A DNA stretch of 62,556 nt, the filler included, from Pirum gemmata (lineage: Eukaryota), in NCBI GenBank assembly GCA_002812295.1. It is 15 parts of 15 records of this genome, joined end to end, with 100 filler letters (N's around TTAATTAATTAA, not from the genome) between each part and the next. Parts side by side here need not be neighbours in the genome. Positions count along the whole stretch, not along the records: positions 22,701 to 26,521 come from PDIN01001905.1; 14 more parts are not named here. One strand, written 5' to 3'. The translations under genes and the position numbers were made by a program. Of this stretch, positions 24,662-25,552 are shown piece by piece (positions within the stretch are counted from its first letter, which is position 1; every line of letters begins with the position of its first letter). The notes under the pieces are model-generated. The model worked only from the letters and a program-made list of their open reading frames with translations. It was not told the DNA's origin and searched no databases.

Positions 24662-24662
<1 letters not shown>

Positions 24663-25552
24663 TGAATAAACTAAATGCTAAACAAAAGCAATTAGTAAAT
24701 ATTAAAAAACAATATGACAATTTAGAAAAAATATATTTGGGTAACAAAACTTTAAAAAACCTAAAAAAATTAGATTATGTTAAAAAAAAATACAATAAAG
24801 AATTACAGAAATATTATACATTAAAAGCAACTATCGATTCCAGTTGTGCCCAAATTTCTTCGAGAGATTGTATGTCTTGTGAACGATCTTTACGAGAATT
24901 ACAAAAAAAGTACAATTATCTTCTAGCTAAAACACAAAATAAACAAGTACCCTATAAACCAATGCCTTATAAACCTTCATATAAATCAAATAGGTCTTCA
25001 TCTTCATATCCACCACCACCACAGCCACCACCACCACCACCACCACCACCATCAAGTTATCAATCGAATTCCTCATCATCATCTTCAAGTTCATTATTTG
25101 ATGCAATAAATGCTGGAAACTTTAATCTAAAAACGATCATCAACAACAATAATAATTCAAATTCGTCACCACCACCACCACCACCACCTCCGTCAAATCT
25201 TTACTCGAATTCACCCTCTTCTGCTTCTTCTTCTTCAAATTCTTTATTCGATGCAATAAATGCAGGTAATTTCAAACTAAGAAATTCAAAAGACAGGACG
25301 ACGACTACTACTAATATCAACCCTCCATCACCAACAAACTCTAGTTCACGAAGTTCTTTATTTGATGCAATAAATGCAGGTAATTTCAAATTAAGAAATT
25401 CTAAAGACAGAGTAATTAAGAATCGTTTACCAATATCACCAAGTTCATCTTCTGATAGTTTGTTAAATGCTTTACAAAATAAACTCGCAAATATACGCTC
25501 TGATGTTAGTGATGATGATAACAATACTGATGATGAAAGCGATTGGATTTAG
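24662..25552 (+). CDS. WASP/WAVE-like actin nucleation-promoting factor (coiled coil, poly-Pro, 3x WH2, central helix, acidic tail with Trp; 296 aa)
   Basis: Three SLFDAINAGNF(N/K)L(K/R) WH2-like motifs, two poly-Pro tracts, C helix SLLNALQNKLANIR and terminal SDDDNNTDDESDWI. Intronless. Confidence 0.88.

What the first reader, a model, noticed from the sequence alone, without database searches (positions are those of the whole stretch)
24662..25552. Complete WASP-like Arp2/3 activator (poly-Pro, 3x WH2, C, A) inside a virus-like cassette
Seen: an intronless 296-aa ORF with an N-terminal Lys-rich coiled coil containing CxxC, two poly-Pro tracts, three SLFDAINAGNF.L(K/R) repeats, an amphipathic LLNALQNKLANIR helix and an acidic tail ending DDESDWI. 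Established: poly-Pro + WH2 + C + acidic/Trp defines class I nucleation-promoting factors, and it is mimicked by baculovirus P78/83 and Rickettsia RickA. Cellular WASP/WAVE/WASH proteins carry WH1, SHD or WHD N-termini, none of which is visible here. Inference: a protist-infecting large DNA virus or other mobile element encodes its own actin-hijacking factor, for motility, nuclear entry or egress. I do not know of this being characterised in protist viruses, but cannot verify novelty.
Basis: partly seen in the sequence, partly recalled or inferred. Interest (0 to 1): 0.88.

Follow-up and report, generated by a model that had tools for sequence, protein, structure and literature searches.

The report
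Virus-derived actin switch in animal relative
A eukaryote genome, likely that of a single-celled relative of animals, has a 3-kb piece of likely giant-virus DNA pasted into one of its repeats, and this piece holds an intact gene whose tail carries, in order, the motifs predicted to bind actin and switch on the host's actin-branching machine.

Summary
Observation confirmed. The intact, intronless 296-aa ORF has a helical head, two poly-Pro tracts, three WH2-like repeats, a C-like helix and an acidic Trp tail. Its tail aligns in register with N-WASP (E 0.025), and the top four viral-library hits are baculovirus WH2/P78/83 entries (weak). The window is a string of unrelated ~3.8-kb scaffolds, so only 22701-26521 is true context. 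There a 2,991-bp, 88%-coding cassette (two H-type lectins, a nuclease whose closest relatives are giant-viral, this gene, one gene cut at the junction) sits inside a high-copy repeat whose other copies lack it. A DNA run bridges both junctions at host-gene depth. Two spliced RNA runs hold pieces of the ORF at low depth, strand unknown. The nuclease matches a Pirum gemmata gene model. Best reading: an endogenised giant-virus fragment carrying a WASP mimic. Against: no capsid or polymerase gene, no relative of the head, WH2 below Pfam's cut-off, no basic doublet in C, binding untested. This scan noted giant-virus WASP-like genes before on other DNA (unchecked); my five literature searches found none in print. 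New here: an integrated copy with a likely host.

The parts
22701..26521 (.). The real scaffold; everything outside it in the window is unrelated DNA
   Evidence: Bounded by N44-spacer-N44 joints
22701..22806 (+). Left flank: piece of a high-copy repeat, reading like the end of a non-LTR reverse transcriptase (recalled motif, not confirmed)
   Evidence: Very high summed depth in the first bin and joints to 25798 in runs X1 and X2; translation; tblastn against another RT of the window not significant
22807..25797 (.). 2,991-bp inserted cassette, 88% coding, GC 28%, no terminal repeats, at most 1 bp shared at the junctions
   Evidence: X1 contigs bridge both junctions (22722-23268 and 25198-26034, 0 differences)
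22818..23234 (-). Membrane-anchored H-type lectin, 138 aa
   Evidence: Pfam H_lectin E 1.2e-11; hydrophobic N-terminus seen in the sequence
23369..24208 (+). PD-(D/E)XK nuclease, 279 aa, of a family common in giant viruses
   Evidence: Pfam PDDEXK_1; 34-44% identity to 80 listed viral loci, 31 of 80 named GVMAG; phages 23-30%; tree; same gene as EukProt Pirum gemmata model P0002
24300..24593 (+). Soluble H-type lectin, 97 aa
   Evidence: Pfam H_lectin E 7e-07
24662..25552 (+). WASP-like gene, 296 aa, single exon
   Evidence: no AG in the 68 bases upstream, so no splice acceptor before the ATG
24662..24937 (+). Basic three-helix head (residues 1-92) with Cys62 and CxxC at 24869-24880; no known relative
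   Evidence: Helices 2-27, 31-64, 68-92 at pLDDT about 70-83; only generic helical-bundle matches; no family or atlas hit
25010..25051 (+). Poly-proline tract 1 (residues 117-130)
25094..25132 (+). WH2-like repeat 1
   Evidence: 6 synonymous and 2 non-synonymous codon changes against repeats 2 and 3
25169..25192 (+). Poly-proline tract 2 (residues 170-177)
25244..25282 (+). WH2-like repeat 2
25358..25396 (+). WH2-like repeat 3
   Evidence: Aligns with the last WH2 of N-WASP; Pfam WH2 below cut-off
25460..25498 (+). Central (C)-like amphipathic helix, Leu at 267/271/275, single Arg279
   Evidence: pattern from PMC3298513 section 11
25499..25549 (+). Acidic tail with Trp295 (codon 25544-25546)
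25600..25803 (+). Small Cys-rich ORF with hydrophobic start, cut by the right junction (its stop codon lies in the flank)
   Evidence: no Pfam family
25798..26521 (+). Right flank: continuation of the repeat, then decayed multi-copy sequence

Best explanation
A 3-kb gene-dense fragment, likely from an unsampled giant virus (Nucleocytoviricota), is integrated in a repeat of a eukaryote genome that is likely the ichthyosporean Pirum gemmata, and it carries an intact gene predicted to be a viral class I nucleation-promoting factor. Mechanism (inferred from motif order and from established WASP biology): poly-Pro tracts recruit profilin-actin, the three WH2 repeats hold actin monomers, and the C helix and acidic Trp tail engage host Arp2/3 to start branched filaments. 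With no autoinhibitory WH1/GBD or WAVE-complex head it would be constitutively active, and the basic three-helix head would anchor or cluster it on a virion, viral DNA or an acidic membrane, as P78/83 is anchored on baculovirus nucleocapsids. Shown: ORF, motif order, cassette borders, filled and empty sites, host-like DNA depth, RNA cover. Inferred: viral source, host identity, actin and Arp2/3 binding, activation, role of the head. The copy here is most likely a recent passenger read at low level, not a domesticated host gene.
For: Best PDB sequence hit of the tail profile is N-WASP, WH2+C+A in register, E 0.025. 3 of 1.84 billion representatives hit at E<=0.001: a 129-aa WH2-WH2-C-A(W) protein (P0122), a bryozoan WASL, and a viral-contig poly-Pro+WH2 protein with the same GNFKLR ending. 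Ranks 1-4 and 8 of the viral library are baculovirus WH2/ORF1629/P78/83 entries. Repeat cores differ mostly at silent sites (2/0, 6/2, 6/2). Nuclease neighbour groups with viral-contig sequences, SH-aLRT 98. Cassette is 88% coding, intronless, cut mid-gene while a host gene in the window has a 1,232-nt intron. Joints that skip the cassette in X1 and X2; X1 bridges both junctions; cassette contigs at depth 127-442 against 328-368 for the host gene. X2 and X3 are spliced RNA and hold ORF pieces with 0 differences.
Against: No capsid, DNA polymerase or packaging gene on the fragment. No full-length homologue in any search and none of the head. WH2 is below the Pfam cut-off and lacks the second basic residue of LKKT. 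The C helix lacks the Arg/Lys doublet of the published pattern. Viral-library matches have E 0.006-0.16, TM about 0.1, on a model with mean pLDDT 54.6. The origin of P0122 is unknown. 0 of 13 viral records with the nuclease had a match to the tail profile. The tree is the quick version, on a long branch, with rows chosen by likeness to the query. The one spliced cassette joint seen is on the minus strand, so RNA cover may be antisense. ViralRecall found no reliable hit in Pirum gemmata (PMC11244446).
Confidence: 0.55

Rival explanations
1. Same viral fragment, but the protein does not activate Arp2/3: the three WH2 repeats sequester or directly nucleate actin (Spire/VopL-like, recalled), or the degenerate C plus acidic Trp tail occupies Arp2/3 as a decoy.
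For: No basic doublet after the third hydrophobic residue of C; three WH2 rather than one or two; a viral WH2 relative, P0124, has no acidic Trp tail at all.
Against: C and A follow the last WH2 in WASP order and spacing; P0122 keeps the same WH2-WH2-C-A(W) order with a basic residue in C; in the N-WASP alignment Lys274 falls in the basic stretch.
Confidence: 0.2
2. The cassette is not from a giant virus but from another mobile element (polinton/adintovirus-like, a giant repeat of the kind described in Amoebidium, or a plasmid-like element), or the NPF is a host gene that lost its head and introns and was copied here.
For: No viral hallmark gene; only one of five genes has viral relatives; H-lectins found no credible viral relative; GC matches the host; host-like AAT microsatellite upstream; such elements occur in ichthyosporeans (PMC11244446 section 7).
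Against: Nuclease family is giant-viral by identity and tree; the exact NPF sequence is not in the protein collection and no ichthyosporean paralogue appeared; no terminal repeats or target duplication; GC3 0.17-0.25 is below three host ORFs at 0.29-0.30.
Confidence: 0.2
3. The scaffold is a chimera or comes from a virus co-occurring in the culture, not from the host chromosome.
For: Very fragmented assembly; no listed contig spans the whole cassette; the best DNA run may be the source of the assembly, so it is not independent.
Against: Both junctions are bridged with 0 differences; depth is like a host gene; a GT-AG spliced joint inside the cassette in RNA run X2 points to nuclear transcription.
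Confidence: 0.05

Closest known systems
Baculovirus P78/83 (ORF1629)
   Same: Viral gene with poly-Pro, WH2 and Arp2/3-binding tail; top hits of the viral library. P78/83 drives Arp2/3-dependent nucleocapsid motility (PMC2930276, passages).
   Different: No sequence homology shown (E 0.006-0.16, 15-18% identity); 296 aa against 417-580; different head; linked to a giant-virus nuclease; integrated in a protist genome.
WASP / N-WASP (class I NPF)
   Same: Poly-Pro, tandem WH2, C, acidic Trp in order; in-register alignment with 6uhc_H and with a bryozoan WASL.
   Different: No WH1 or PBD/CRIB (found in P0123, not here); three WH2 with poly-Pro between the first two; no basic doublet in C; single exon.
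WAWH type II (WASP without WH1; Kollmar 2012)
   Same: No WH1; CxxC near the N-terminus, Ser-rich and coiled-coil segments, poly-Pro, VCA (PMC3298513 passage).
   Different: WAWH has a GBD and two CxxC; this protein has one CxxC and no GBD match.
Rickettsia RickA
   Same: Pathogen-encoded WASP-like Arp2/3 activator (named in PMC9769910 passage; domain order recalled).
   Different: Bacterial; no match came up in NCBIfam; not compared directly.
Giant endogenous viral elements of Amoebidium appalachense
   Same: Intron-poor, gene-rich viral DNA inserted in an ichthyosporean genome, incomplete and mostly silent (PMC11244446 section 7).
   Different: Those reach 200 kb and carry core viral genes; this is 3 kb without them; that study found no reliable hit in Pirum gemmata, and its main text has no actin regulator.

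Membership tests
Class I nucleation-promoting factor (VCA) | One or more WH2: helix with two large hydrophobics, two small/acidic, Ile/Leu; linker; LKKT-like end | tested here: inconclusive
   Helix part met in all three repeats; end is LK/LR without second basic residue; Pfam 14.6-17.3 bits against cut-off 23.1; aligns with N-WASP WH2, which also reads LKSV
Class I nucleation-promoting factor (VCA) | C helix: three hydrophobics spaced by three residues, then a terminal hydrophobic | tested here: met
   Leu267, Leu271, Leu275, then Ile278/Val282; predicted helix 264-282
Class I nucleation-promoting factor (VCA) | Arg/Lys doublet or triplet after the third hydrophobic of C | tested here: not met
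   Only single Lys274 and Arg279
Class I nucleation-promoting factor (VCA) | Acidic C-terminus with Trp at or near the end | tested here: met
   8 of last 17 residues acidic, Trp295
Class I nucleation-promoting factor (VCA) | Proline-rich region upstream | tested here: met
   Residues 117-130 and 170-177
Class I nucleation-promoting factor (VCA) | Binds G-actin and activates Arp2/3 | not testable with these tools
   Needs biochemistry; no actin sequence could be obtained for a complex model
WASP / N-WASP | N-terminal WH1 and GBD/CRIB | tested here: not met
   No Pfam WH1 or PBD at E<=10, positive control P0123 has both; head predicted all-helical; no upstream acceptor
WAVE/SCAR, WASH, WHAMM/JMY | Family-specific N-terminal domain | tested here: inconclusive
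   No such Pfam family hit residues 1-110; fold search gave only generic helical bundles, which does not exclude a remote link
WAWH | GBD present, WH1 absent | tested here: not met
   No PBD match; definition
Giant endogenous viral element | Integrated in host DNA | tested here: met
   Filled and empty sites, bridged junctions, host-like depth; long-read proof missing
Giant endogenous viral element | Intronless, gene-dense, genes with giant-virus relatives | tested here: met
   88% coding; 1 of 5 genes with clear viral relatives
Giant endogenous viral element | Core Nucleocytoviricota genes (capsid, PolB, A32, VLTF3) | tested here: not met
   None among the five ORFs; the rest of the genome could not be searched

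The most novel reading that the evidence does not exclude
An unsampled giant virus of ichthyosporeans hijacks host Arp2/3 with its own triple-WH2 WASP mimic, and this integrated, intact, transcribed copy gives an animal relative whose cellularisation depends on Arp2/3 an unregulated, virus-born actin nucleator: a first step of co-option, and the first giant-virus NPF tied to a named host.
Probability: 0.15. Interest if true: 0.85.

Novelty: new variant of a known kind. Interest (0 to 1): 0.62.

Why it matters
Viral WASP mimicry is established for baculoviruses. Surveys of giant-virus cytoskeletal genes that I checked cover actin, myosin, kinesin and dynamin but never mention WH2. Metagenomic giant-virus candidates have no known host. 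This copy sits in the genome of a likely ichthyosporean, a group in which Arp2/3 is needed for cellularisation (Sphaeroforma, PMC6855841), so the viral activator can be tested against the actin machinery of its probable host. It would also be evidence of giant-virus infection in a species where a published screen found none, and shows how fragments below the reach of hallmark-gene screens can carry intact host-manipulation genes.

Tried and rejected
Whole genome not held, so no search for longer copies or for the host's own WASP/WAVE/WASH genes. Word-seeded homologue searches with the whole protein and tail profile (longer proteins only) found nothing; candidates were crowded by low-complexity words. 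Locus searches with the protein, the tail profile or P0122 confirmed no relative in viral or metagenome contigs; P0122's own contig was not retrieved, so these searches are incomplete. A degenerate WH2 DNA pattern gave 34 viral matches, 2 in an ORF frame, 1 in a WH2-like context. ESM Atlas: no usable hit for whole protein or head. P0124 has only its own locus in viral contigs. The one viral hit of the membrane lectin (L116, E 7e-4) is a Mu-like phage locus and was not reproduced by phmmer: rejected. NCBIfam BimA hit (21 bits against cut-off 600) reflects poly-Pro/WH2-like composition: rejected as family. PDB hit to CAP1 (E 0.026) covers only poly-Pro plus one WH2 helix. Zinc-hook dimer idea for the CxxC head and an actin complex: not tested; the complex predictor was not available and no actin was obtained. 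Helitron or TIR transposon capture: no fitting termini. Flank as non-LTR reverse transcriptase: motif recalled, tblastn and PHROGs tests negative, left as a lead. My early note that P0002 is a diverged paralogue was wrong: it equals residues 96-279 of the window nuclease minus 17 residues. Run X4 covered only repeats. Bins without RNA cover in the cassette are not used as evidence. The careful nuclease tree did not finish; only the quick tree is cited (40 of 80 viral loci plus 4 phage rows).

Full report
1. Observation. window:24662-25552 (+) is one open frame of 296 codons. It has a Lys-rich head (net +18, Cys62, CxxC 70-73), poly-Pro at 117-130 and 170-177, three LFDAINAGNF.L[KR] repeats at 145, 195 and 233, a Leu-rich helix at 267-279 and an acidic tail with the only Trp at 295. 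In 100,000 shuffles, 402 had one WH2-like motif and none had three, the acidic Trp tail, or the WH2+C+A set. I relaxed the published patterns by hand and the repeats are duplications, so the test overstates rarity. The repeat cores differ mostly at silent positions (2/0, 6/2 and 6/2 synonymous/non-synonymous codons), which suggests selection on the peptide. There is no AG in the 68 bases before the ATG, so no upstream exon can splice on there.

2. Context. The window is not one locus: it is a string of unrelated scaffolds of about 3.8 kb joined by a fixed spacer. The finding's scaffold is 22701-26521. It holds a membrane-anchored H-type lectin, a PD-(D/E)XK nuclease, a second H-type lectin, the WASP-like gene and a small Cys-rich ORF. 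Laying three public runs on it showed contigs in X1 (depth 399) and X2 (depth 800) that join about 22780 to 25798, and the same loose end in X3; the letters between are those that stand in the window at 22795-22805. So a 2,991-bp cassette (22807-25797, 88% coding) is inserted in one copy of a high-copy repeat whose other copies lack it. The last ORF takes its stop codon from the flank, so the cassette was cut mid-gene; there are no terminal repeats and at most one shared base. This fits capture of a broken DNA piece by end-joining (inference). The flank reads like the end of a non-LTR reverse transcriptase, but that is a recalled motif and my tests did not confirm it.

3. Integration and RNA. 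As control I laid the runs on an intron-bearing host gene of the window. X1 spans the intron (DNA; depth 328-368); X2 and X3 skip a 1,232-nt CT..AC intron (RNA; depth 308 and 18.5) and show no cover in the intron bins 12456-13204. On the cassette, X1 contigs have depth 127-442 and bridge both junctions with no differences (22722-23268, 25198-26034). X2 holds 24734-24993 (depth 24.6) and X3 holds 25198-25448 (depth 3.3), both identical. Contig depth is no copy number or expression level, X1 may be the assembly's source, and no listed contig spans the whole cassette or the poly-Pro stretch 24994-25197. One X2 contig (depth 4.5, 30 letters on the short side) joins 23182 to 24348 with canonical minus-strand donor and acceptor: a sign of nuclear transcription, but antisense to the WASP-like gene, so sense expression is not shown.

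4. Host and source. The nuclease's best hit, P0002, is EukProt EP00122 Pirum gemmata; it equals residues 96-279 of the window protein minus 17 residues, so the window is likely that ichthyosporean's assembly. The other 119 of 120 listed hits (174 in all) are 32-44% identical proteins, none named as a gene of a cellular eukaryote. With an alignment of 30 of them, 596 of 598 viral stretches were confirmed; the best 80 are 34-44% identical and 31 of 80 are named GVMAG. Annotated phages give 7 records at 23-30%. A quick tree of 40 of the 80 loci and 4 phage rows puts the window sequence with the viral-contig rows (SH-aLRT 98) on a long branch without a near relative; rows were picked by likeness, so this is support, not proof. 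A second, about 90% identical nuclease copy with indels is in X1 and X2. No capsid, polymerase or packaging gene is on the fragment, and the rest of the genome could not be searched.

5. Relatives of the protein. phmmer over 1.84 billion representatives gave 3 hits at E<=0.001, all on the tail: P0122, an unnamed 129-aa WH2-WH2-C-A(W) protein of unknown origin, 39% identical; P0123, a bryozoan WASL whose two WH2 and C align in order; and P0124, a CCDC53-like + poly-Pro + WH2 protein without acidic tail on a viral contig with XRN, M16 peptidase and DHFR-TS neighbours. A profile of the tail and P0122 ranks N-WASP first among 177,635 PDB sequences, WH2, C and A in register, E 0.025. Pfam WH2 stays below its cut-off. 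The single-sequence model (mean pLDDT 54.6) has three head helices, short helices on each WH2 and a C helix. In the viral library ranks 1-4 and 8 are baculovirus WH2/ORF1629/P78/83 entries, but E is 0.006-0.21 and TM about 0.1, so this is motif likeness, not fold. The head matches only generic helical bundles and nothing in the Atlas. The tail profile found nothing in 13 viral records that carry the nuclease (37 of 50 handles were not held).

6. Mechanism. By the definitions in PMC3298513 (section 11 and passages) WH2 binds G-actin and CA binds and activates Arp2/3. The protein meets the WH2 helix, the C hydrophobic spacing, the acidic Trp and the poly-Pro features, and fails the basic doublet of C and the full LKKT. 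I commit to a constitutive Arp2/3 activator anchored by its basic head, used by the donor virus to build branched actin, by analogy to P78/83 (PMC2930276, passages); probability 0.55 for the whole chain. A non-activating binder or Arp2/3-independent nucleator gets 0.2, a non-giant-virus or host origin 0.2, artefact 0.05. About 6% of single-base changes would create a stop, so an intact frame says only that the insertion is recent or still selected.

7. Novelty. Five searches (listings of 20 of 184, 15 of 425, 15 of 39, 15 of 67 and 4 of 4 papers) showed no paper on a WH2/VCA protein in giant viruses. Term searches in PMC11915834, PMC10583209 and PMC8850707 (passages) found 'WH2' 0 times, and PMC9769910 mentions WASP only for Rickettsia (passages). 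The library lacks most subscription papers and I read no supplements, including table S5 of PMC11244446, which could list weak Pirum hits; its main text reports no reliable ViralRecall hit in Pirum gemmata (passages and section 7). This scan's own notes list five giant-virus WASP-like findings on other DNA, unchecked by me; none resembles this sequence and none is an ichthyosporean insertion. In Sphaeroforma, Arp2/3 inhibition blocks the first step of cellularisation (PMC6855841, passages).

8. Verdict. Real gene, real insertion, NPF-like by anatomy, not a member of WASP or WAWH, likely viral in origin, function untested. New variant of a known kind; interest 0.62.

Noticed in passing
window 23777-24187: A second, about 90% identical copy of the nuclease with small indels is present in DNA run X1 and RNA run X2, so the genome holds at least one more related insertion.
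   Followed up: no
window 23183-24347: One RNA contig skips 1,165 nt with canonical minus-strand splice sites, joining sequence antisense to lectin 2 onto lectin 1: cryptic host splicing of inserted DNA.
   Followed up: partly
L106:3859-5004 (-): Viral-contig protein with two CCDC53 (WASH complex subunit)-like repeats, poly-Pro and one or two WH2-like motifs but no acidic Trp tail: a second kind of candidate giant-virus actin regulator.
   Followed up: partly
P0122 (ENA contig of 13,196 bases, not retrieved): A 129-aa protein that is almost nothing but WH2-WH2-C-A(W): a minimal stand-alone VCA of unknown origin.
   Followed up: partly
window 11800-14763 (-): Host RBR/IBR-type E3 ligase gene with a 1,232-nt intron confirmed by two RNA runs.
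   Followed up: yes
window 32042-33027 (+): Frameshifted non-LTR retrotransposon reverse transcriptase fragment, judged from the translation.
   Followed up: no
window 17316-17974 (+): Decayed frames with a repeated segment and a C-terminal Cys-pair motif resembling an IS605/TnpB-type transposase remnant (recalled resemblance).
   Followed up: no
window 29360-29512 and 16997-17025: TTAGGG/TAAGGG-type telomere-like repeats inside scaffolds.
   Followed up: no
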